Notes under the pieces: generated by a model
Seen by the model: only the letters and a program-made list of their open reading frames with translations
Database searches by the model: none
Told to the model about the DNA's origin: nothing
Shown here: one piece after another, positions 3,101 to 62,400 of the stretch
Layout: each line of letters begins with the position of its first letter
Numbering within the stretch: position 1 is the first letter of the stretch
Assembly (NCBI GenBank): GCA_964458335.1
Contig: CAYWIJ010000002.1
Location: 26,379 to 90,378, forward strand
DNA: 64,000 nucleotides
DNA from: an uncultured Candidatus Peribacteria bacterium
GTDB taxonomy: Bacteria; Patescibacteriota; Gracilibacteria; Absconditabacterales; Absconditicoccaceae
Reading direction: 5' to 3'
Made by a program: the position numbers and the translations under genes

Positions 3101-5695
3101 CAGTCAGAAATGGCAGATAAAGATGGTAAATCAAAAACAGCGAATATTGCATTTGATACAACGACAGATCTTGCTGGTATGTTATTGATTTTATCTACTA
3201 AAAAACTTGTACCTTTTAATGAACAAGAATATGTTGATTATAAAAAGAAAGATGGACTATCTTCAGATACTGTTCCACAGGTGAAAAGAAAATGGCATTC
3301 TCTCTCTACATGGCGATCTGTATTATCAGGAAAAGGGAAGGATATTATTGATGGAATTAAAAAGAAATTTAAAGAAAATGAAGAAGAATCGTTGAAATAT
3401 GCCCTATTTACAGAGTGAAGACTCATGCGTAGAGTTGCGAATGGTTGGTTGTGAAAAGTTCTCGATGGATTTGATCTGAATGTGTTGAATGAGATGGCGT
3501 GAGAGATTGAGATTGAATGACAAAATTTTTGATGGAAGAAGATAGAAGGAGTATTTAAATTTTTGGATAGCTTCCATGCTGCAAATAATGCATATGGGCC
3601 ACCTGGTATGTGAATGGTAGAAGGTATAGTGACATGAGCAGTACAAAAGTATAATAGTTGATCTCTGGGGATGAAAGATAGACGAAAAGTAGCTGGAGCA
3701 TTACTATATAGTATTGATAAAATGAAATCATGATATGCAAAAAATTTATCTAAGTATCCAGCTGGTACTTATGTAAAAATATTGTTTGGAGAACAGTATT
3801 ATCATCATTATATGCGTCACTATAAAAATTTAGAATTAGAAGCAAAAGAAAACAGTGATGCAGGAAGAGCTGCACAAGAGCGTCTCAATATGTTGGAATA
3901 TAATTTTATTGTAGCTAATGTAAGAGGAGGTGATGTATTAGAAAAAAACGAACCTTATGTTGTTCAAGATAGTACTAATCCTATTTTCTATTTTCAAAAT
4001 TTATATTCAAGAAAGTTTGGTAATGAATTATGAAATCGTCTTTGAGAATTAAAATCTTTTGAAGTAAACTCAAAAAGCAAAGATGTTAAAGATCTGATAG
4101 ATACGAATAATTTTGATCATGTCTATAATGAATGTAGAGATCATATGTTTGATGTAAGGGTGAAAGATTGTCTCAATGAATTGATTGCACTCCAATATAT
4201 GGCAAAAGATGCAGAGCAAGCAGATAAAGTATCACAACTTTTTATGTCAGGTATTTTAAGTGGAGTATTTGTTAATAATCTTTCAAAATCTAATAAAACT
4301 GATCTCAAAAAATTGATGTTCCAAGCAGGTATTCCTTATGCAGGTTTGATAGAAAAGTATGATGGTCCAGCTAAAATTCAAAAATTGCTCATCTTAGCAA
4401 CAGGTACTACGTCAGGAGATTTTTCACACTTTACCTATGGAAATAATAAAAATTCATACAATCCAAATGATTTCAAATCTTCTGTAGGAAATCAAGATAA
4501 AAAGTGATTAATATTATCATTTGAACAATGGTTTAAAGATCATAGAGATCAAATTATTCCTTTCCTTCATATGGATCCTGATAACATGAAAACCAAGGAT
4601 AACATGATACGTATTTGGAAATCCAAAGAGTCAGATATTGAAGTTTTTGGGAAAAAAGTAGATCCTGACACAAAAAAATTGGTTGATGATGTTATGAAGG
4701 ACTTTTATTATAATACAGGATGAAGACAAATTACTCTTGATGATCTTAATTATGGTAGTGATCTTGTCCATACAGCGAGTATGATAGAACAGACATTCCC
4801 TGTGATCAATCAATATGAAGAAGGAAAACGAAAAAATGACAATAAAGATCATGCTGAGCTTCTTTGGTCAAATATTACTAAAAATGTACCAAGTGGGAAA
4901 GAGACTTTTGATAATAGATATCTCCTTGCTCATAATATTAATAACTTTTTTAGATATTTTGATGGAATTGGTGATATTCATTATAGTAGATGAGCTATAG
5001 AACTTTTTTATAGAAATATGCGTCTGGCACAAGAACAAACGAACCCAAAGGATAGAACACGCTTGATATGGTTCTATCTGACAGATTTGCTCTATGGGAA
5101 AGGACGTGTTCCAAAAGAAGTTGATGAATGAGCATTTAAAAAATATATGGAGTATTTTGAAACTAATCTTGATAATTTTGACGCTAAACTCTGAAAGGAG
5201 CATACTATTCCATCAGGAGAAGGAGATTTTGAAGATGTCTTTACGGATTCTGGCGCTGGAATTACCTATATTCCAGAAAAAAAATGGAGAGAAATTACTA
5301 TTCAGTGACAGCAAAATCAATATTCAAAATGGGCGAGAGCAAATGATACAACCTTACTCAATCTCAAGATGACGAAAGATAATGAGACAAAAAGAATATG
5401 AGGAGGTAATCTCTATGGAAATAATTTTAGTAGATCAATTGGAAAATCTGTTGATGATAAGATAGAGGAGTTGAGAACATGAAAAATCTCTACTATTAGT
5501 AGTGAGAAAGAGCTGATAAGAACTAACCCTATCGATACTAATAATAGAAATAATATAGATTTAGATTCTATTGTTACACCACAAAAATCACCTACTCCAA
5601 TCTTTCTCAATAAGAAAAAATGATGAAAAGATAATGCTTCTTCATATGATGATGTTTTGGAAAATCTGAGAGATGATTTATGAATTGCTGCCTAA
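104..5695 (+). CDS. giant hypothetical protein (1863 aa under code 25)
   Basis: One reading frame from ATG 104 to TAA 5693-5695. Hand scan shows only TGA interrupts it. It joins track ORFs 845-, 1331-, 1700-, 2054-, 3110-, 3782-, 4145- and 4781-. No signal peptide, TM segment or domain recognised. Confidence 0.75.
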
Positions 5696-7164
5696 GTATT
5701 CATCTGATATGCGAAATATTCTTCTTTGGTCATAAAAGAAATTTCAAGAGAAGCTATAGTCTGACCGCTTTTAGCAGTAAGAGCTGAACAGATACTATCC
5801 TTGATCTCTTTTTTATTGAAAGTCATCTTTGCAAGAGGATTCGTGATAATGAGTTTTGCGACTCAATCCTCGATACTGACTAATTCTGACTGTCAGGAAA
5901 GAAGTTTTTGTAATGATGGAGAGAGGAAGGAAATGGCGTCGATGAGGATGGTTACTAGTTCCTGGTTCTTAGTTTGTCATTCCAAGGAACGAGGAATCTC
6001 TGATTTATCTTTGGCTATACTATTGAGAGATTCTTCACTTCACTGTGTTGCATTCAGAATGACAGTTCATTGATTGTGGATTGCTTCATTTTCCCCCCCA
6101 AGAGGTCCTCAAATGACTGGTGACTTATTAGATTCTTCACTTTTCATTCTTCATTTTTCATTATACAGAAGTGTTTTGTAAAGTAGTAATGGATGTGGAT
6201 ACCATTTTGCTTGACTGAGGAGTTGTGAAGAGAGTTCGCTGATCTGACTATAGAGTGTTCTATTTTCATTAAAATGGCGATCAGCATAACTCATGAGTTG
6301 CTTAGGTAAGAGAGTCAGATCTACTCCTTGTGTTCCTAATTCTTCTATTGATGATATAAGTGTATCAAAATCAGTAGAGTGTTGGCTTTGAAGATATATT
6401 TCATAATGCTTGATAATATTGACAATACTCGCATCTGATACGACACCGAGAAACTGTGCGACATTACTTTCGTTTACTTCTCCCATGACAGAAATCTGAT
6501 CAAGATATTTCACTGCATCTCTCATACATCCATCAGAAAGATCAGCAATCATAGATAAACCCTGATCATCTTTGGTGATATTTTCCGTATTAGCAATATA
6601 ATCGAGACGACCTATGATGAGTGGTGATGGAATTTTCTTAAAATTGAATATCTGACAACGAGACACGATTGTATCAGGAACTTTGGTCAATTCTGTCGTT
6701 GCGAGGATAAAGACCATCCATTCTGTTGGCTCTTCCATAGTTTTAAGAAGTGCATTGAACGCACCTCTACTGAGCATATGGACTTCATCAATAATAGTAA
6801 TTCTCTTCTTGAGCATACTCGGACGATACATGAGTTTGTCGATAATCTCTTCTCTGATATTATCTACTCAGGTATGAGAAGCCGCATCGATTTCCATGAT
6901 ATCCATGGTTGTACCTTTACTGATTGCGACACAATTTTCACATTCATTACAAGGATTTCCGTCCGTCGCGGTCAGACAGTTTATTGCTTTTGCAAAAAGT
7001 CTTGCTGTAGAAGTTTTCCCTGTTCCTCTGGGTCAGAAAAAAAGGTAATTTGCCTGACGAGTATGATGTGCAACCTGATATTTGAGGATATGAGAGATAT
7101 GATCTTGACCTACGAGATCATCAAATGTTTTGGAACGGTATTTATTAGCAAGTGATTGGGTCAT
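5692..7164 (-). CDS. dnaX: DNA polymerase III subunit gamma/tau
   Basis: N-terminus [30 protein letters not shown], where the first Walker-A Gly is TGA at 7033-7035. Also DEVHMLS and VSRCQ motifs. Extends track ORF 6151..6831 in both directions through TGA codons. True stop is TAG 5692-5694, overlapping the convergent giant-ORF stop. Confidence 0.9.
5976..6063. repeat. palindromic REP/RPE-like element inside dnaX, read in frame
   Basis: gtcattccaaggaacgaggaatctc...gagattcttcacttcactgtgttgcattcagaatgac. Terminal inverted arms are gtcattc/gaatgac and gaggaatctc/gagattc. Translated in frame as ..[30 protein letters not shown].. in the DnaX C-terminal region. Confidence 0.7.
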
Positions 7165-13644: not shown

Positions 13645-13992
13645 AAATTGCATCTGTTGGATAAGCCTGGTTCTGTCGAGATATGATATGTATCTAATCC
13701 GACGTATAGTCGAAATCTTGCACTTCTCCCGATTTGTCGGGATGAGCTTGCACGATGGACGGTTTACCACTCGACTAGCTTCTGCTAGACTGAGTACTAT
13801 GTAGCTATATTTAGTATAACACCATAGACTTTTCACCTTTCACCCCGATAGTTGGGGTTAGTATTGTCGCTGTGGCACTTTCGTTTGACCTATGATAGGT
13901 ATCCAACTGCTGTGAGCAGTTCCATGAGAGTATCGTGCCAGGACTTTCCTACCTTACAGATGTAAGATCATCATATTACAACAGATGCAATC
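13645..13992 (-). ncRNA. rnpB: RNase P RNA (bacterial)
   Basis: The minus strand carries ggtaggaaagtcctgg (GGAAAGUCC), gtgccacagcgacaa, ggggtgaaaggtgaaaag and cgacagaaccaggcttatcc (ACAGAACC-GGCUUA). A 12-bp P1 helix pairs ttgcatctgttg (5', plus coordinates 13979-13990) with caacagatgcaa (3', 13648-13659). The ends are approximate. Confidence 0.9.
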
Positions 13993-17828: not shown

Positions 17829-18536
17829 ATGTCACGTACCAAATTGATCAGATATACAACAGCTCAAGATGAGCCCATGATGATTCAGTCAGGAAAACTA
17901 TTTTTTGAAAAATGTAAGGGAAAACGAAGATCTGACTATTTTGGAAATAATAATCCGATTGTTTTAGAATTGGCTTGTGGTCGTGGTGAATATACGGTGG
18001 GTCTTTCTCAAATATATCCGAACAAGAATTTTATCTGAGTAGATATTAAAGGAGAGAGAATGATGATGGGAATTAGAAATTATAAATTATGAATTGAAAA
18101 TTTTAGATGAGAGTATAATTGAGGATTTAAAATTCAAAATTTAGAATCTCCTAACATTGCTTTTCTTCGCACGATTATTCATCATATTGATAGATTTTTT
18201 GATGAGGGAGAAATAGATGAAATATGGATCGTTCATCCTGATCCAAGATCAAAGTGACATGATGAGAGAAGGAGAATTACTTCTCCACGTTTTTTGGCTA
18301 TGTATGCAAAGATTTTGAAATCTGATGGAATACTAAGACTCAAGACTGATGATGATGGAATGTTCGAATATTCTAGCGAACAGTTTAATCAGTTTGGATT
18401 CCATTATATTGATAGTACACGAGATTTAGATCAGTCTCCGTTAGCAGCTCATCACCATGATATAGAAACTCATTATGGAAAATTATTCAAAGAAGAGTGA
18501 AGAACAATCAAATATGGAATTTGGAGAAATAATTAA
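17829..18536 (+). CDS. trmB: tRNA (guanine-N7)-methyltransferase
   Basis: [19 protein letters not shown] (G = TGA), [11 protein letters not shown] and ILRLKTDD. The start was chosen at MSRTKLIRY. Stop is TAA 18534-18536. Contains an in-frame low-complexity insert. Confidence 0.85.
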
Positions 18537-28355: not shown

Positions 28356-28958
28356 TTATTCTCACTTTGCTATTTTGATGATATCATTAATATTAGCAAT
28401 ATCTTCTTTATTCTTAGCAATATCTTCTTTATTCTTAGCAATATCTTTTTCATTTTGAGTAATATTATTTTTACTTTTAGCAATATCTTTTTCATTTTGA
28501 GTAATATTATTTCGGGTTGTTACTAATGTATTATAGTCATTTTGGAATCTGTTATAAATGTCTTTTTGTCATCAGAATACTTTAAATGCTTCTTTTATTT
28601 CTTTGAGTACTTGTTGGACATATTGATCCTGGTAGAGTATTGATGTCTCTTGTTTATTAAGAAATACAACGAAACTAGTTCGGAAATCTACTAATTCTTG
28701 TCATGATAATCGCATAATATCATCAGTAGATTTTGCTCCATATTTATGAAGTAGATCATCTACTTGAATTTTTACCTTTGGATCACCTAAAGAGATAGGT
28801 GTTTCGATATTTTGAGTTTGGTCTTTATTCTGAGCTATAACAGTCGGTCATCATACACTGAGCGCAAGAACTGTAAGCAGAGCTTTGATCTTGAGTCAGA
28901 AATCTTTTTTGTTTTTAGATTCTGATGAAATATTAGCTGTATTGAGAGATGATTCCAT
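28356..28958 (-). CDS. secreted/membrane-anchored repeat protein, unknown
   Basis: ATG 28958 to TAA 28356-28358, 200 aa. N-terminal hydrophobic segment LKIKALLTVLALSVGG. C-terminal repeats NNITQNEKDIAKSK x2 and NKEDIAK x2. The frame was hand-scanned. Missing from the track. Confidence 0.65.
28391..28520. repeat. nested 21-nt and 42-nt tandem repeats (coding)
   Basis: ttagcaatatcttctttattc x2, then ttagcaatatctttttcattttgagtaatattattttt x2. No spacers, and in frame with the CDS. Confidence 0.8.
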
Positions 28959-29034
28959 ATCTAACGATATAAGAAATAAAACTCACGATTCATATAGATA
29001 TATTATAACTATTTTTTTGAATTTTGCAAGAGAA

Positions 29035-29343
29035 TTATATGACACTATCCATGATCCAGTTTCCATAACCGTGGCTGGATGTACCATTTAGTCTAATAAT
29101 ACAGGGAGTATCGTCAGGGTGAACAGATTTTACGGCTTCTTTTACTAATGCCCAATTTTGTGGTTTGGTATGATAGATTGTTACAACTTCACTTCCTTTC
29201 TGAATTTTTCCATTCCATATATAGGTATTTTGGATAGGGAATAAGTGTACTCCTGATATGAGCTTTTGACGGAAAAGGTGGTCACTGACCTTATCGGCGT
29301 TGTGCTGATCGTTGTGGGTGACATAGATGAGGATGACGTCCAT
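29035..29343 (-). CDS. cutA: divalent-cation tolerance protein CutA
   Basis: 102 aa with a CutA-like pattern: VILIYVT..A..V...L...KL.., YIWNGKI.., E..V..K. Confidence 0.75.
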   Translation of the reverse strand: MDVILIYVTHNDQHNADKVSDHLFRQKLISGVHLFPIQNTYIWNGKIQKGSEVVTIYHTKPQNWALVKEAVKSVHPDDTPCIIRLNGTSSHGYGNWIMDSVI

Positions 29344-41794: not shown

Positions 41795-41826
41795 TACTGG
41801 ATTCTTCACTTCGTTCAGAATGACAG
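41795..41826. repeat. 32-nt half-element of the gaatgac palindrome family (upstream of leuS)
   Basis: ttactggattcttcacttcgttcagaatgaca is 31/32 identical to 61430-61461. Confidence 0.6.
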
Positions 41827-46894: not shown

Positions 46895-47008
46895 TATTTA
46901 GGAAGTGAGAAATTTTAAATGATAGATTTTAGATGAGTTATTGGTTGCTAGCTGTTAGGGAATTGCGGATTACGAATAATTTTTTCATTTTAAATTCTTC
47001 ATTCTCAA

Positions 47009-48042: not shown

Positions 48043-50409
48043 ATGAAAAAATTATTTTTTTGACTGATGATGAGTGTAGCGATTAGTATGATGTACGTAT
48101 CAGCTGATATGATACCATGAGCATTTGTGACGACATGGAAGACAGACAATCCATGATGAGTTGCTAATCAGATTATCATACCCATCCAATGAGCGTGATA
48201 TAATTATAATATCTATTGGTCAGGAGTAGATAATAGCTATACGGGAGAACTGTTGTGACGTACAGCAGCGACAACGATTACATTTCCAAGTACGGGAACA
48301 TATCAAGTCCAGATCACAGGAGCATTTCCACAGATATATATCAATAGTAATGCGAACACTCGTCAAAAATTACTCAGTGTAGATCAGTGGTGAACAGGAG
48401 TATGGAGAAGTATGCAAAATGCATTCTATGGAGCGAATAATATGGTGATCAATGCGACAGATACTCCAAACTTGAGTACTGTGACGAATATGAGTCAAAT
48501 GTTTAGAGCTGCAACGACATTAGTAGACAATGGATGAGCGATGAATACTTGGGACGTTAGTAAAGTAACTACTATGCAAAGTATGTTTAGTAGTGCAAGA
48601 AATTTTAATCAACCAATTTGAGATTGGGATGTGAGTAATGTAACTACTATGCAAAATATGTTTTATCAAGCAAGTGCATTTAATCAAGATATATGAGATT
48701 GGGACGTGAGTAAAGTAACTACTATGAGACATATGTTTGCTGCTTATGATCCATGAACTGACACTACTTTTAATCAAGATATATGAGATTGGGACGTGAG
48801 TAGTGTGACAGATATGTTGAGTATGTTTCAACATAATATTGCTTTCAACCAACCGTTAAATAATTGGAATGTGAGTAATGTAACTACTATGAATTGTATG
48901 TTTTGCTATAATATTGCTTTCAACCAACCGTTAAATAATTGGGATGTGAGTAAAGTAACTGATATGCAATGAATGTTTTATGGTATGATAAACTTCAACC
49001 AACCGTTAAATAATTGGAATGTGAGTAATGTAATTGATATGTCAATGATGTTTGGAGGTGATGATAGTGAAAGTAGTACTAAAAACTTCAACCAACCGTT
49101 AAATAATTGGGATGTGAGTAATGTAACCACCATGGAAGAAATGTTTTCTGCCGCAAAATCATTCAATCAAAATCTTTGATGATGGAATGTAGAAAAAGTA
49201 AGTAATATGTCTAATATGTTTTCTTGAGCAAAACTTTCCGTAGTAAATTATGATGCCTTATTGAGTGGATGGAATAGCCAGAGCTTAAAAACAGGCGTAA
49301 ATTTCCATGGAGGAGATAGTCAGTATTGTGTATCAGATTTAGAACATACTGATCTCTTTAGTGGATCTCATGGATGGATATTACAATGAGATGGTGGAAT
49401 GAATTGTATACGTGATATACTACTTTCAAAGATAACTATTAATGAAAATCAGACATTGGTAGGGGCGTTATCATTGGATAGATTTAATAATATTCTTTGA
49501 TTATGAACACATATGTATACTCTGATATCTGGAACAGGAGATGAGGACAATAGTCTATTTGTAATTAGTGGAAATCAACTTTCTTTCATTTCAGCACCAG
49601 ATTACGAGAATCCACAAGATCAGTGAGATGGCGTAGGAAATAATACTTATCGTATTAGAATACAAGGAGAAGATGGTAATGATGGATCGATCTTAGAAAA
49701 GATATTTATCATCACTGTTTTGAATATTAGTGAAAGTACAGGATGAGGAGGTGGAGGATATGTGATACCAGATAAAGTAAAAGAGGTAGAAGAAGTAACA
49801 AGAGTAGATCCAACTATCTTCAATCCTAGTATATCATCATCTACCTGTTTTAGTCCACTTAACCAAACAACTATCGACCAGTGAGTGAAGGTAAGTGAAG
49901 CATTCAAAACTGCCCATCAGATGTTATATAGTTATGGATTGACTAAACGAGAAAGGACTGCAGATTATAGACCATATGACTATCTCACGAGAGAAGAAGC
50001 AGCAAGATTTATGGTAGAGTTTGCAGAGAATGTTTTATGTAGAAAGAAAACGAGAACCTACAATAATAATTTTTCAGATCTCGATACTGCTAATCCTACG
50101 TTGATGAAATTTATTAGAGAATCATATAACTATGGAATCTTTAATGGACATACTGATGGTACATTTAAACCTACAGAACGTATTACTAATAATGAATTAG
50201 CTACCACTATGGTAAGACTGATTACGAACTCTTTCTTAGAAGAACCACAAGAAGATCGAGCATTGAATTATAGAAATACTTTATCTTATTATGCAAAAAG
50301 ATCATTATTGAATGATCAAGGTAGAGGAAATATCGCAGAAGCGATCTATGATCTGTATAGAAATAATGAGTATGTTCTGAAAGATATGGGATATGTTATT
50401 AAGAGTTAA
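48043..50409 (+). CDS. surface protein: signal peptide + BspA/DUF285 repeats + cadherin-like domain + SLH domain
   Basis: MKKLFFGLMMSVAISMMYVSA signal. About 9 repeats of FNQP[LI]xxW[DN]VSxVTxMxxMF. Cadherin-like ITINENQ..DEDNSLFVISGNQLSF..PDYENP..TYRIRIQ. C-terminal FSDL..GIFNGHTDGTFKPTERITNNE (SLH-like). 788 aa. The frame was hand-scanned. Confidence 0.85.
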
Positions 50410-55576: not shown

Positions 55577-56266
55577 ATGATTATTCGTAATCCACGAGAG
55601 CAAGAATTTCCCTGATTACAATCGTATGTAACGAGTGATTTTGTAGAACCTGCACAACCCAAGATGACACAGACGCACAGTAATAGAGTAGTTGTTGTCA
55701 TGGAGAGAACTCAAGATATTGGGGAAGCTGATGGTATGGTAACGAGTTTGAAAAACCTTGAACTTCATGTTCGTGTGGCTGATTGTGGAAATATCTATGT
55801 CTACGATCCTGTAGCTGCAGTGATTGGGCTCTGTCATAGTGGTTGGAAAGGAGCGCAAGGCAATATCCTGACTCATATGATCACTGCCATGACTTCATTA
55901 TGATCACAACCAGAGCATATCCGTATCCGAACGGGCCCTTGTATTAGTGCTCAAAACTATGAATTCTGACCAGAAGTGAGAGACTTGTTTTCAGAAGAGT
56001 ATTATACTACAGATAGGTCATTGCGAGGAATGAAGCAATCCACTAATAGATTGCCACGCTCCGTTGCACTTCGCTCGCAATGACAAAAGAAGTATTATCT
56101 CAATCTTCCCAAACTTCATCGTGATCAACTTCTCGCAACGTGAGTAGTATCAGAACATATTATTCAGTCAGCTATTTGTACTTTTGATACTCTTGAACTC
56201 CATTCCTATAGAAGAAATGGTCCCAATGCTGGTAGAATAACAGGAAGTATCTGCCAAACTCTATAA
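55577..56266 (+). CDS. pgeF: laccase-domain / YfiH (PgeF) family protein
   Basis: QTHSNRVVVV, ADGMVT, RVADCGNIYVYDP, GLCHSGWKG and HSYRRNG. 229 aa. Contains an in-frame palindromic insert. Confidence 0.8.
56017..56084. repeat. palindromic REP/RPE-like element inside pgeF, read in frame
   Basis: gtcattgcgaggaatgaagcaatccactaatagattgccacgctccgttgcacttcgctcgcaatgac. The 11-bp terminal arms gtcattgcgag/ctcgcaatgac are exact complements. Encodes ..RSLRGMKQSTNRLPRSVALRSQGQ.. Confidence 0.75.
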
Positions 56267-57924: not shown

Positions 57925-58329
57925 ATGTCAGAAGAAACATCACTTCTTATCAAAGAATATTACAAATCTAATCAGTTTCATAGAGAAATGGAGAATTTTA
58001 CCGTGATGAAAAAAATCGGGAACAACGTATGTGGAGATAGTATCGAAGTGTTTTTGAAGATAGAAGATGCTATTATTACTGATTATTCTTATGCTGGAGA
58101 ATCGTCTCAGATCACGAAAGCAGCAGCAGAATTTTTCTGAGAATACGTCATAGGGATGAAAATCTGAGAGATCCTGACACTTGATGCGGATTGGGTCAGA
58201 GGTGAAGGTTTTGAAGTCTCTCATCGTCGTATCAGATCCAGTGTCTCTGCTATTCTAGCGACCAGAAATGCCATTCATGCATATCTGGATGATGGAATAA
58301 TTGATGAGTATGAGGATTTGATAAATTAA
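57925..58329 (+). CDS. NifU/IscU/SufU-like Fe-S scaffold-domain protein
   Basis: GNNVCGDSIEVFLKI and the ..SSQITKAAAEFF.. pattern. 134 aa. Only one of the usual Cys ligands is evident. Confidence 0.65.
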
Positions 58330-58422
58330 GAATTGGGAATTAAAAATTAGAAATGAGATGTATAATTGCGATGTAGGGACCTAATATGTTACATCTTTTT
58401 TTACCTGATTTTTTATAACTAT

Positions 58423-61375: not shown

Positions 61376-61429
61376 GAGCGTCACCCTGAGTTTGTTGAAG
61401 GGTCTATTTATTATTATTTTAGATATTTT

Positions 61430-61461
61430 TTACTGGATTCTTCACTTTGTTCAGAATGACA
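61430..61461. repeat. 32-nt half-element overlapping the start of the glycosylase gene
   Basis: ttactggattcttcactttgttcagaatgaca. The ATG inside gaATGaca (61456) is the predicted start codon. Confidence 0.6.
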
Positions 61462-62400
61462 ATACCTCCACAACAAATCGAACAATTTCAATCAGATATT
61501 CGAAAACGACGAGCAATGAATCGTAGAGATTTGCCATGGAGAAAAACAACAGATCCCTATAAAATTTGGATATCTGAAACGATGCTTTGTCAGACACAGG
61601 TTAATAGAGTCATTACGTATTATAATGACTGGCTCAGAACATTTCCAACAGTAGAATCATTAGCACAAGCAAGTACAACTGATGTCTTATCTGCTTGGTC
61701 AGGTCTGGGTTATAATAGTAGAGGATTGAGAGTATTACAAGCAGCGAAAGAAATTCTAAATTCTAGATTTTGAATTTTGAATGAAGGGGTCATTGCAACG
61801 CAGGACGCAATCCATGACAAATGAAAATCACAATATCTGGATTGCCACGCTCCATTACATTTCGCTCGCAATGACGAATCATTTCCAAATACTTACTCTG
61901 ATCTTATTACTCTTCCCTGAGTAGGAGATTATGTAGCCAATGCAATCTTAGCATTTGCTTATGGACAAGATGTGGCGGTGATAGATACGAATATCAGAAG
62001 AATTTTCATTCATCACTTTTCGTTAGATGAAAAAATCTCACTCAAGGAATTGAAAGAAGTTGCTCTCCAAGTTTTGCCTCACTGATATGCGACTGATCGA
62101 TATAATGCATTGATGGATTATGGAGCTTTAGAATTAACAGCCAAAAAGAGTGGTATCAGACCACTGACCCGTCAGAGTACATTCGAAGGCTCAAGGAGAC
62201 AGGTGAGAGCTTGGATAGTAAAGGAAATTGTAAATTCTAAGTTATGAATTCTAAATTATATTGATATACAAAAAAGATTTCCTGATCGTAATGATATCAA
62301 GAGTATTATTGATGATTTGGTGAAAGAAAACGTGATAGAAATTGACTTAATTCGAACGAAGGGAGAGAAAAATTGAAGATTAAAAATTAAAGACTTATAA
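61456..62400 (+). CDS. HhH-GPD DNA glycosylase (MutY/Nth-like, apparently without Fe-S cluster loop)
   Basis: LPWRKTTDPYKIWISETMLCQTQV, LGYNSRG, LPGVGDYVANAIL and VIDTNIRR. No Cys-x6-Cys-x2-Cys-x5-Cys segment after ALMDYGA. 314 aa. Contains in-frame repeat inserts. Confidence 0.8.
61789..61875. repeat. palindromic REP/RPE-like element inside the glycosylase gene, read in frame (87 nt = 29 codons)
   Basis: gtcattgcaacgcaggacgcaatcc...ggattgccacgctccattacatttcgctcgcaatgac. Same family as 56017-56084 and shares attgccacgctcc..t.c.tt.cgctcgcaatgac. Encodes VIATQDAIHDKGKSQYLDCHAPLHFARND. Confidence 0.75.

What the first reader, a model, noticed from the sequence alone, without database searches (positions are those of the whole stretch)
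56017..56084. Palindromic repeat element inserted in frame into the conserved pgeF/yfiH gene
A 68-nt element with exact 11-bp terminal inverted repeats (gtcattgcgag...ctcgcaatgac) and internal complementary arms (gaagcaatcc / gattgcc) interrupts the YfiH-family ORF. It is read through as ..RSLRGMKQSTNRLPRSVALRSQGQ.., at a position between conserved blocks (EVRDLF.. and ..LNLPKLHRDQL).

This mirrors the behaviour of Rickettsia palindromic elements (RPEs), which colonise coding regions in frame. Related copies sit in dnaX and in the MutY-like gene of this same window.
Basis: partly seen in the sequence, partly recalled or inferred. Interest (0 to 1): 0.7.

Follow-up and report, generated by a model that had tools for sequence, protein, structure and literature searches.

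The report
In-frame palindromic REP dimer in pgeF
A 68-base hairpin-forming repeat, one copy of a small palindromic repeat family found across many bacterial phyla, sits in frame inside a conserved enzyme gene of an SR1 (Absconditabacteria) bacterium and is read through as a floppy 23-residue loop; this behaviour is already known from Rickettsia and other bacteria, here seen in a new lineage with a recoded stop codon.

Summary
Window 56017-56084 is a 68-nt palindrome with exact 11-bp termini. It lies inside a pgeF/YfiH gene (55577-56266, +) that is intact only if TGA is read as Gly (code 25).

The closest orthologue sits on a syntenic contig, is 84% identical, and lacks the insert. So do most other orthologues.

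The element is a head-to-head dimer of two short REP-like units, each built as YGTC-ATTGC-loop-GCAAT-CCA. This is the plan of the 'CGTC-tagged REPs' of Di Nocera et al. 2013, which include Rickettsia RPE-4 and RPE-6 and are known to sit in frame in genes. The stem here is shorter and the loops longer than in the published families.

Palindromes with the same termini occur in at least 120 genome loci across many phyla and in 92 viral contigs. No Rfam, Pfam or NCBIfam family covers the element.

The window holds about nine such units. Dimers lie in pgeF, an HhH-GPD glycosylase and dnaX; another fills an intergenic spacer.

Unexpectedly, the same protein loops carry different REP types in different SR1 lineages. 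The mobilising enzyme is unknown.

The parts
55577..56266 (+). pgeF/YfiH (Cu-oxidase_4) gene, 229 aa under code 25, carrying the insert
   Evidence: Pfam PF02578 E = 6e-47. Translation. All 14 invariant columns of the orthologue alignment are kept.
56017..56084 (.). The element: a 68-nt head-to-head dimer of two ATTGC-type REP units, translated as SLRGMKQSTNRLPRSVALRSQG
   Evidence: (E = 2.5e-10)
56017..56042 (+). Left unit: head gGTC, stem ATTGC, 10-nt loop gaggaatgaa, stem GCAAT, tail cca
56047..56084 (-). Right unit (read on the - strand): head tGTC, stem ATTGC, 22-nt loop, stem GCAAT, tail cta
   Evidence: The 36-nt arm is identical in unrelated metagenome contigs.
61789..61875 (.). Second ATTGC-type dimer, slightly decayed, in frame in the HhH-GPD (MutY/Nth-like) glycosylase gene (61456-62400, +); encodes VIATQDAIHDKGKSQYLDCHAPLHFARND
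   Evidence: nhmmer E = 5e-8. Absent from L002. DNA.
61380..61460 (.). Intergenic head-to-head heterodimer (cGTC-ACCCT unit plus tGTC-ATTCT unit) filling the LytR/HhH-GPD spacer; its right head supplies the ATG at 61456
   Evidence: The spacer is 3 nt in L002.
5976..6063 (.). Head-to-head heterodimer (ATTCC unit plus ATTCT unit) inside the hypervariable linker of dnaX (5692-7164, -); encodes VILNATQGSEES...IPRSLEG
6076..6090 (-). 15-nt fragment AATGAAGCAATCCAC, identical to the interior of the pgeF element, in dnaX
41801..41824 (-). Solo ATTCT-type unit, intergenic (between leuS and a P-type ATPase gene)
   Evidence: (D17)

Best explanation
The element is a non-autonomous palindromic repeat of the REP/REPIN kind.

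**Anatomy.** It is two short units in head-to-head orientation. Each unit has an unpaired (C/T/G)GTC head, a stem beginning AT (ATTGC/GCAAT), a loop, and a CCA-like tail. This is the plan of the 'CGTC-tagged REP' superfamily, to which Rickettsia RPE-4 and RPE-6 belong.

**History.** A copy entered (or was retained in) a variable 6-residue linker between two beta-strands of PgeF in this SR1 lineage. The insertion added a whole number of codons, and TGA means Gly here. The mRNA is therefore read straight through, giving a 23-residue, probably disordered surface loop that leaves the fold and catalytic residues intact. It is most likely neutral or slightly deleterious selfish DNA, not an adaptation.

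**What is shown:** the anatomy, family membership by profile, lineage-specific presence, an open frame, the loop position, and recent gain/loss among close relatives.

**What is inferred:** that the element moves as DNA (by analogy with REPINs, probably as a single-stranded hairpin cut at the GTC heads), that it is translated, and that it is tolerated. The enzyme that moves CGTC-type units is unknown, in the literature as well as here.
For: - **Anatomy.** Units with the same plan but co-varying stems occur in the window and in relatives: ATTGC/GCAAT, ATTCT/AGAAT, ACCCT/AGGGT, ATTCC/GGAAT, and in relatives ATTCCGGA/TCCGGAAT, ACCCTGAA/TTCAGGGT, ATACTGAA/TTCAGTAT.
- **Family.** These span Alpha-, Gamma- and Deltaproteobacteria, Bacteroidota, Chloroflexi, Cyanobacteria, Planctomycetes, CPR, Rickettsiales and Legionellales. 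It is also in 92 viral contigs.
- **Flanks.** The neighbouring bases extend the head to C/T-GTC (-1 is C 66%, T 24%) and there is no target duplication.
- **Arm co-variation.** In the 9/9-nt arm class, 24 of 42 elements have perfectly complementary arms, against 10.3 in shuffles, and all four Watson-Crick pair types occur at the variable position.
- **Lineage-specific.** L002 is syntenic, with proteins 78-95% identical, and lacks all three dimers present in window 54-64 kb. In an NJ tree, each insert-bearing pgeF is sister to insert-less ones.
- **Loop position.** An AF2 model of the insert-bearing orthologue P0001 has mean pLDDT 87. Insert residues 153-167 fall below 50 and are coil, between strands 143-145 and 172-174. 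The model keeps the YfiH fold, TM 0.66-0.76.
- **Frames.** Orthologues read the insert in two different frames (SLRG.. and HCERN..) yet stay open.
- **Literature.** CGTC REPs are mostly head-to-head dimers, occur inside genes where they encode 20-30 aa, often lie in replication or repair genes, and have no known transposase (PMC3733652).
Against: - The units have a 5-bp stem and 10-22-nt loops. The published CGTC definition is 8-9-bp stems and 4-5-nt loops, and single arms fold weakly on their own (-4 to -6 kcal/mol).
- The left head is GGTC, a rare variant.
- No transposase was found. Only 10 small ORFs of the window were scanned, not the genome.
- Translation and tolerance are not demonstrated.
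- The near-identity of a 36-nt arm across unrelated organisms is unlike classical, vertically inherited, lineage-specific REPINs.
Confidence: 0.75

Rival explanations
1. Same element, different history: the pgeF insert is old and inherited vertically, and the insert-less orthologues have lost it by deletion, rather than the window lineage gaining it recently.
For: The window, L001 and L003 share the insertion offset, the frame and the flanking codons T(T/Q)D. P0004, sister to insert-bearing P0001, has a deletion between the flanking KYY..KYY direct repeats that removes the whole linker.
Against: This history needs several precise, frame-restoring losses. L002 lacks all three dimers in 10 kb of synteny. 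L004 carries a different subfamily, 2 codons upstream and in another frame, which is an independent event.
Confidence: 0.3
2. The hairpin is kept because it works at the RNA level inside the mRNA, for example as an RNase III or RNase E site, a stabiliser or a translational pause. The coding read-through is incidental.
For: The fold is strong (z = -4.2). The sequence is conserved across phyla, with variable side hairpins at fixed positions. The REP literature proposes RNA roles for intergenic copies.
Against: Presence is patchy among close relatives. The palindrome occurs in both orientations and in intergenic, genic and viral contexts. No Rfam family matches. The same gene functions without it in most relatives.
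Confidence: 0.1
3. The insert is an adaptive protein module: a selected peptide loop that changes PgeF activity or interactions.
For: The frame is kept open in four orthologues. Di Nocera et al. speculate that REP inserts in repair genes may alter activity.
Against: Orthologues translate the element in different frames, giving unrelated peptides (SLRGMKQS.. versus CHCERNVMERG..). The insert has pLDDT below 50 and no secondary structure. The conserved features are in the DNA (termini, stems), not the peptide.
Confidence: 0.05
4. The element is removed or bypassed before or during translation (intron-like, or ribosomal hopping), so the protein has no insert.
For: The element is a compact, stable hairpin inside an ORF. 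The palindrome itself (68 nt) is not a multiple of three.
Against: The net insertion is exactly 23 codons in the window, and it is a whole number of codons in all four insert-bearing orthologues despite different lengths and frames. This points to selection for read-through. No ribozyme or intron model matches.
Confidence: 0.03
5. The feature is a chance inverted repeat or an assembly artefact.
For: None beyond the short length of the element.
Against: The cross-phylum profile gives E = 2.5e-10. Nearly identical inserts occur in independent assemblies L001 and L003. Exact termini are found in hundreds of public records, including finished chromosomes.
Confidence: 0.01

Closest known systems
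CGTC-tagged REPs (Di Nocera, De Gregorio, Rocco 2013, BMC Genomics 14:522)
   Same: Both have an unpaired C/T-GTC head, a stem starting with A-T pairs and a CCA-like 3-nt tail. Both are mainly head-to-head dimers (homo- or heterodimers) with variable spacers, and are dispersed multi-copy repeats. Genic copies encode 20-30 aa, often in replication or repair genes (here dnaX and an HhH-GPD glycosylase). No adjacent transposase is seen.
   Different: The stem is 5 bp and the loops 10-22 nt, against 8-9 bp and 4-5 nt. The host is a CPR/SR1 bacterium using code 25, whereas the paper lists 5 phyla, mostly Alphaproteobacteria. The ATTGC-type arms are nearly invariant across many phyla. Classical 8-bp/5-nt CGTC units do occur at the same glycosylase site in SR1 relatives (L128, L129).
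Rickettsia palindromic elements (RPE; Ogata et al. 2000, 2002); RPE-4 and RPE-6 = CGTC-4 and CGTC-1
   Same: Both are palindromic repeats inserted in frame in conserved genes of a small, AT-rich, host-dependent genome, translated as extra loops compatible with the fold. Both are also found in intergenic DNA.
   Different: The sequences differ (RPE-6 encodes SFLRKQES../..DSRFRGND; here SLRG../..ARND). RPE-1 is 105-146 bp, against 68 nt here. No NCBIfam or Pfam family matched the insert peptides. The family here is not genus-restricted.
REPINs mobilised by RAYT / TnpA-REP (Bertels & Rainey 2011; Nunvar et al. 2010)
   Same: Both are two inverted REP units forming one long hairpin, with conserved arms and a variable apical spacer. 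The arms co-vary, solo units exist as remnants, and there is no target-site duplication.
   Different: REPINs carry GTAG heads, are tied to a single-copy RAYT gene flanked by REPs, and are lineage-specific and vertically inherited. Here the head is GTC, no RAYT was seen, and identical arms occur across phyla and in viral contigs.

Membership tests
CGTC-tagged REP superfamily | Unpaired terminal CGTC motif (TGTC or CCTC allowed) | tested here: met
   The right unit has tGTC; the left unit has gGTC (atypical). Across 123 elements the base before GTC is C in 66% and T in 24%.
CGTC-tagged REP superfamily | Stem begins with complementary A-T pairs at positions 1 and 2 | tested here: met
   ATTGC...GCAAT in both units. 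The same holds in the sister units ATTCT and ATTCC; the ACCCT unit has A at position 1 only.
CGTC-tagged REP superfamily | Stem of 8-9 bp and loop of 4-5 nt (Table 1 of the paper) | tested here: not met
   The stem is 5 bp and the loops are 10 and 22 nt. Relatives L128 and L129 carry 8-bp/5-nt units at the homologous glycosylase site.
CGTC-tagged REP superfamily | 3-nt unpaired tail, consensus CCA | tested here: met
   The tails are cca (left) and cta (right). Six of the nine window units have cca or cta and three have ctc/cta-like tails.
CGTC-tagged REP superfamily | Mostly head-to-head dimers; repeated and dispersed in the genome | tested here: met
   The window has four head-to-head dimers plus one solo unit in 64 kb. 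Copies are numerous in other genomes, for example at least 40 places on a Novosphingobium replicon.
CGTC-tagged REP superfamily | Sequence match to one of families CGTC-1 to CGTC-4 (Figure 2 consensus) | not testable with these tools
   The figure is not held. The supplementary peptide lists contain no VIAS/ARND/LAMT-type peptides. Listed CGTC-1 peptides (VIPAKAGI, SFPRKRES) differ from those encoded here.
Rickettsia palindromic elements (RPE) | Sequence similarity to an RPE family (RPE-1 to RPE-10) | tested here: not met
   The insert peptides in three frames gave no hit in NCBIfam or Pfam at E up to 10. Whether those libraries hold RPE-domain models was not checked. Peptides of RPE-4 and RPE-6 listed in the supplement differ.
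Rickettsia palindromic elements (RPE) | In-frame insertion in conserved genes, absent from orthologues, at a loop compatible with the fold | tested here: met
REPIN-RAYT system | Two inverted REPs forming a hairpin, with conserved arms and a variable spacer | tested here: met
REPIN-RAYT system | A cognate RAYT (Y1/HUH transposase) gene flanked by the REPs | tested here: inconclusive
   None was found among 10 small uncharacterised ORFs of the window. The genome outside the 64-kb window was not searched. The literature reports none for CGTC REPs.
REPIN-RAYT system | GTAG head motif cut by RAYT | tested here: not met
   The heads are (C/T/G)GTC.
Rfam structured RNA families | Covariance-model match | tested here: not met
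   No hit at the element in the window and none in 15 loci from other phyla.

The most novel reading that the evidence does not exclude
The ATTGC-type dimer and its sister units may be moved by a still-unknown, phylum-spanning mechanism that targets pre-existing elements or specific hairpin-prone sites: a 'landing-pad' or cassette exchange at the GTC heads. That would explain two things. First, the same two protein loops (pgeF, HhH-GPD glycosylase) hold different REP families in different SR1 lineages. Second, a 36-nt arm is identical in unrelated organisms and viruses. SR1 genomes (about 1 Mb, with recent presence/absence differences) would then be the simplest system in which to find the long-missing mobiliser of CGTC-type REPs.
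Probability: 0.2. Interest if true: 0.75.

Novelty: new member of a known kind. Interest (0 to 1): 0.5.

Why it matters
**Extension of a known phenomenon.** In-frame palindromic repeats in essential genes were known from Rickettsia, Wolbachia and scattered Proteobacteria. This shows the same thing in the Candidate Phyla Radiation, in a genome where TGA=Gly removes a stop that the element's own terminus (..CAATGAC) would otherwise create.

**Link to a very widespread family.** The copy belongs to a palindrome family that is unannotated in the one record examined and is found across many phyla and in viral contigs.

**A possible route to an open question.** What moves CGTC-type REPs is unknown. 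Close SR1 relatives differ by three insertions in 10 kb, and the genomes are tiny, so comparative genomics could narrow the candidates.

**Annotation.** These elements generate recurring spurious or odd peptides (..SLRG.., ..HCEE.., ..ARND.., ..LAMT..), and under code 11 they split genes.

Tried and rejected
- **Rfam.** Scans of the whole window at gathering threshold, of the element at E up to 10, and of 15 loci from other phyla found no family at the element; the only window hit is RNase P at 13646-13988.
- **NCBIfam and Pfam.** Insert peptides in three frames, plus consensus peptides, gave nothing.
- **Full-text literature search** by the DNA termini and by typical encoded peptides returned only unrelated primer or gene-name hits. 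The Ogata 2002 RPE paper is not held.
- **Plasmid and phage collections.** The family is present (Novosphingobium, Methylosinus; half-copies in Helicobacter canis phage records). The one record examined (Novosphingobium pSA1) carries essentially no annotation, and most hits have no annotated feature under the match.
- **Composite transposon in multi-copy viral contigs.** L197 and L208 hold only dispersed copies, with no repeated segment between them.
- **Pfam on 10 small unassigned window ORFs**, looking for a Y1/HUH transposase, found none.
The orthologue P0001 was used instead.
- **A loose hairpin scan** (GTCA plus at least a 5-bp stem) is noisy: 41 hits against 23 in shuffles. Only units with head, AT stem and C-tail were kept.
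- **SR1-specific right arm?** Rejected. The exact 36-mer occurs in contigs of 37-47% GC from other metagenomes.

Full report
**Observation**

Window 56017-56084 reads GTCATTGCGAGGAATGAAGCAATCCACTAATAGATTGCCACGCTCCGTTGCACTTCGCTCGCAATGAC. It is 68 nt long with an exact 11-bp terminal inverted repeat, and is 50% GC in a window of 32% GC.
- The 11-mer, allowing 1 mismatch, occurs 5 times against 0.55 expected.
- The strand folds at -27 kcal/mol as RNA (z = -4.2) and -17 kcal/mol as DNA (z = -4.3).

**Genetic code and host**

The surrounding ORF is broken by TGA under table 11. It is continuous under table 25. The in-frame TGAs align with Gly in distant orthologues, for example YEF-TGA-PEV against ..VGEDV and ..VGQDV.

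The ORF 55577-56266 is a YfiH/PgeF protein of 229 aa (Pfam Cu-oxidase_4, E = 6e-47; solved YfiH/YlmD relatives).

The best named relative of the window's dnaX is 'candidate division SR1 bacterium Aalborg_AAW-1' at 76% identity. A 98%-identical protein sits on a 92-kb contig. The host is therefore an SR1/Absconditabacteria bacterium.

**The insert is lineage-specific**

Of 25 aligned orthologues, most are 205-206 aa and have only a 6-residue linker between two YY motifs. The closest one, P0002, is 84% identical. It lies on contig L002, which is syntenic with window 54-64 kb (proteins 78-95% identical) and has no insert.

Three other orthologues carry an insert at this linker.
- L001 and L003 have it at the same offset and in the same frame.
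- L004 has a different subfamily, two codons upstream, read in another frame as ICHCERNVMERGNPLIDCFVPRND.

In a neighbour-joining tree, every insert-bearing sequence is sister to insert-less ones. One sister, P0004, has a deletion between the flanking KYY direct repeats, which looks like an imprecise loss.

The net insertion in the window is 23 codons, that is 69 nt and not 68.

**Position in the protein**

- Mean pLDDT is 87.
- Insert residues 153-167 are below 50 and have no secondary structure. They lie between strands 143-145 and 172-174.
- The model superposes on solved YfiH/PgeF structures at TM 0.66-0.76.
- All invariant columns of the family are retained in the window protein.

**What the element is**

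These came from Bradyrhizobium, sphingomonads, Bacteroidota, Chloroflexi, Cyanobacteria, Planctomycetes, Delta- and Gammaproteobacteria, Berkelbacteria, Saccharibacteria, Tisiphia and Legionellales. A further 92 viral contigs carry it.

The elements share this architecture: GTCATTGCGAG - variable module - GAAGCAATCC - spacer of 6-34 nt - GGATTGCTTC - variable module - CTCGCAATGAC. Optional GC-rich side hairpins sit at fixed positions.

Several other features are consistent across copies.
- The flanking bases extend the terminus to C/T-GTC, and there is no target-site duplication.
- The arms co-vary. In the 9/9 class, 24 of 42 elements are perfectly complementary against 10.3 in shuffles, and all four pair types occur at the variable position.
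- A profile HMM built only from these foreign copies finds exactly two significant sites in the window: pgeF (E = 2.5e-10) and 61789-61876 (E = 5e-8). It finds none in L002.

**Each arm is itself a small unit**

The plan is head (C/T/G)GTC, a stem beginning AT, a loop, the complementary stem, and a tail cca/cta.

Nine such units are credible in the window.
- ATTGC-type, four units: the two dimers in pgeF and in the HhH-GPD gene.
- ATTCT-type, three units: 6030-6063, 41801-41824 and 61437-61460.
- ATTCC-type, one unit: 5976-5997.
- ACCCT-type, one unit: 61380-61403.

The stems co-vary between types while the head, the tail and the GA..GA loop ends stay constant.

This is the plan that Di Nocera et al. 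2013 defined for 'CGTC-tagged REPs': a CGTC/TGTC head, stems starting with AT, a CCA tail, and mostly head-to-head dimers. The paper reports genic copies encoding 20-30 aa, often in replication and repair genes, and no associated transposase. It also states that R. conorii CGTC-1 and CGTC-4 are RPE-6 and RPE-4.

The window units differ in having 5-bp stems and 10-22-nt loops instead of 8-9 bp and 4-5 nt. Single arms fold weakly, at -4 to -6 kcal/mol. I therefore file the element as working like a CGTC-REP dimer and matching its plan, but not as a proven member of one of its four sequence families. Figure 2 of the paper was not available. No hit was found in Rfam or in NCBIfam and Pfam with the insert peptides.

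*HhH-GPD (MutY/Nth-like) gene, 61456-62400.* It carries a slightly decayed ATTGC-type dimer at 61789-61875, preceded by an AT-rich half-palindrome. Together they add 37 residues that L002 lacks.

*dnaX, 5692-7164, minus strand.* It has a head-to-head heterodimer (5976-6063, ATTCC plus ATTCT units) and a 15-nt fragment identical to the interior of the pgeF element. Both lie in a linker that is hypervariable in all orthologues, so there is no clear net insertion.

*Intergenic spacer.* A fourth dimer (61380-61460) fills the LytR/HhH-GPD spacer, which is 3 nt in L002. Its head supplies the ATG of the glycosylase gene.

The window lineage thus differs from L002 by three dimers in 10 kb. This points to recent activity, or to recent loss in L002.

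**In-frame copies are not peculiar to SR1**

In a 41%-GC gammaproteobacterial contig (L025), the element sits in frame in GMP synthase as VIARPRSGAAISKNSEIASEGAPRNDD. L057, from a Bacteroidales genome, shows another case.

In the window copy, two of the three plus-strand frames are open only because TGA is Gly. The third has TAA and TAG in the spacer, so under the standard code none of the three would be open.

**An unexplained point**

The same loop of the glycosylase (AAKxIV|..|FPxTY) is occupied in other SR1 lineages by different elements.
- An ATTGC-type dimer in L127.
- Classical 8-bp/5-nt CGTC heterodimers in L128 (ACCCTGAA plus ATTCCGGA) and L129 (ATTCCGGA plus ATACTGAA).
- An AT-rich palindrome alone in L126.

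Most orthologues are empty at this site.

Together with the two independent events in the pgeF linker, this is more site reuse than random insertion plus selection would easily give. Targeting of existing elements, or exchange at the GTC heads, is a possibility that I could not test.

The 36-nt right arm of the pgeF element is also identical in seven metagenome contigs of 37-47% GC. That is unlike classical, lineage-bound REPINs.

**Mechanism**

*Shown:* the anatomy, the family relationship, presence/absence among close relatives, an open frame, and the loop location.

*Inferred:* DNA-level mobility by analogy with REP/REPIN elements; translation; near-neutrality.

*Unknown:* the mobilising enzyme. 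No Y1/HUH transposase was found among 10 small window ORFs, and the literature reports none for CGTC REPs.

**Verdict**

The feature is a new member of a known kind: REP/RPE-like palindromic repeats tolerated in frame, here in a recoded CPR genome and belonging to a very widespread palindrome family that was unannotated where I checked. Interest is moderate (0.5). The site reuse and the tractability of SR1 genomes for finding the CGTC-REP mobiliser are the parts worth following up.

Noticed in passing
window, whole (e.g. 55901-55903, 55967-55969, 56080-56082): The window uses genetic code 25 (TGA = Gly). Table-11 ORF calling fragments most genes. In-frame TGAs align with Gly in distant orthologues. 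The host is an SR1/Absconditabacteria bacterium related to Aalborg_AAW-1.
   Followed up: yes
window 61380-61460: An intergenic head-to-head REP heterodimer fills the LytR/HhH-GPD spacer (3 nt in relative L002). Its head (agaATGaca) appears to supply the start codon of the glycosylase gene, replacing the GTG start seen in L002.
   Followed up: partly
window 61750-61788; also 18076-18150, 46902-46937, 58322-58357; L126:55-915: An AT-rich repeat or palindrome family (GAAATTnTAAATTnT..TTTTGAATTTTGAATGA) lies next to the glycosylase REP dimer. In relatives (P0034, P0046, P0058-62) it alone occupies the same protein loop, as ..NSQFWILNE..NIQNLK.. Its nature is unknown.
   Followed up: partly
L127, L128, L129 (HhH-GPD genes of SR1 relatives): The same loop of the glycosylase carries different REP dimer types in different lineages, including classical 8-bp-stem/5-nt-loop CGTC units. 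This suggests site reuse or element turnover.
   Followed up: partly
L025:4466-4543; L057:3453-3522: The same palindrome family is inserted in frame in GMP synthase (guaA) of a 41%-GC gammaproteobacterial MAG and in a 410-aa ORF of a Bacteroidales MAG, both under the standard code.
   Followed up: partly
L130-L136 (metagenome contigs): The 36-nt right arm GATTGCCACGCTCCGTTGCACTTCGCTCGCAATGAC is identical in contigs of 37-47% GC that were not shown to be SR1. Some copies are solo half-elements.
   Followed up: partly
window 13646-13988 (-): Bacterial RNase P RNA class A (Rfam RF00010, 109 bits).
   Followed up: no
window 48514-49224 and 28374-28512: There are two tandem coding repeats. One is a unit of about 75/165 nt, in 6 copies, inside a 788-aa ORF (48043-50409). 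The other is a 21-nt repeat (AGCAATATCTTCTTTATTCTT) inside the ORF 28356-29087 on the minus strand, encoding ..KNKEDIA.. heptads.
   Followed up: no
dnaX orthologues P0168, P0175: Longer dnaX linkers in other SR1 relatives contain ..PPSEWQ.. and ..PLSEWQ.. motifs (CTCAGAATGAC-type REP heads). The dnaX linker may therefore also collect REP units repeatedly.
   Followed up: no
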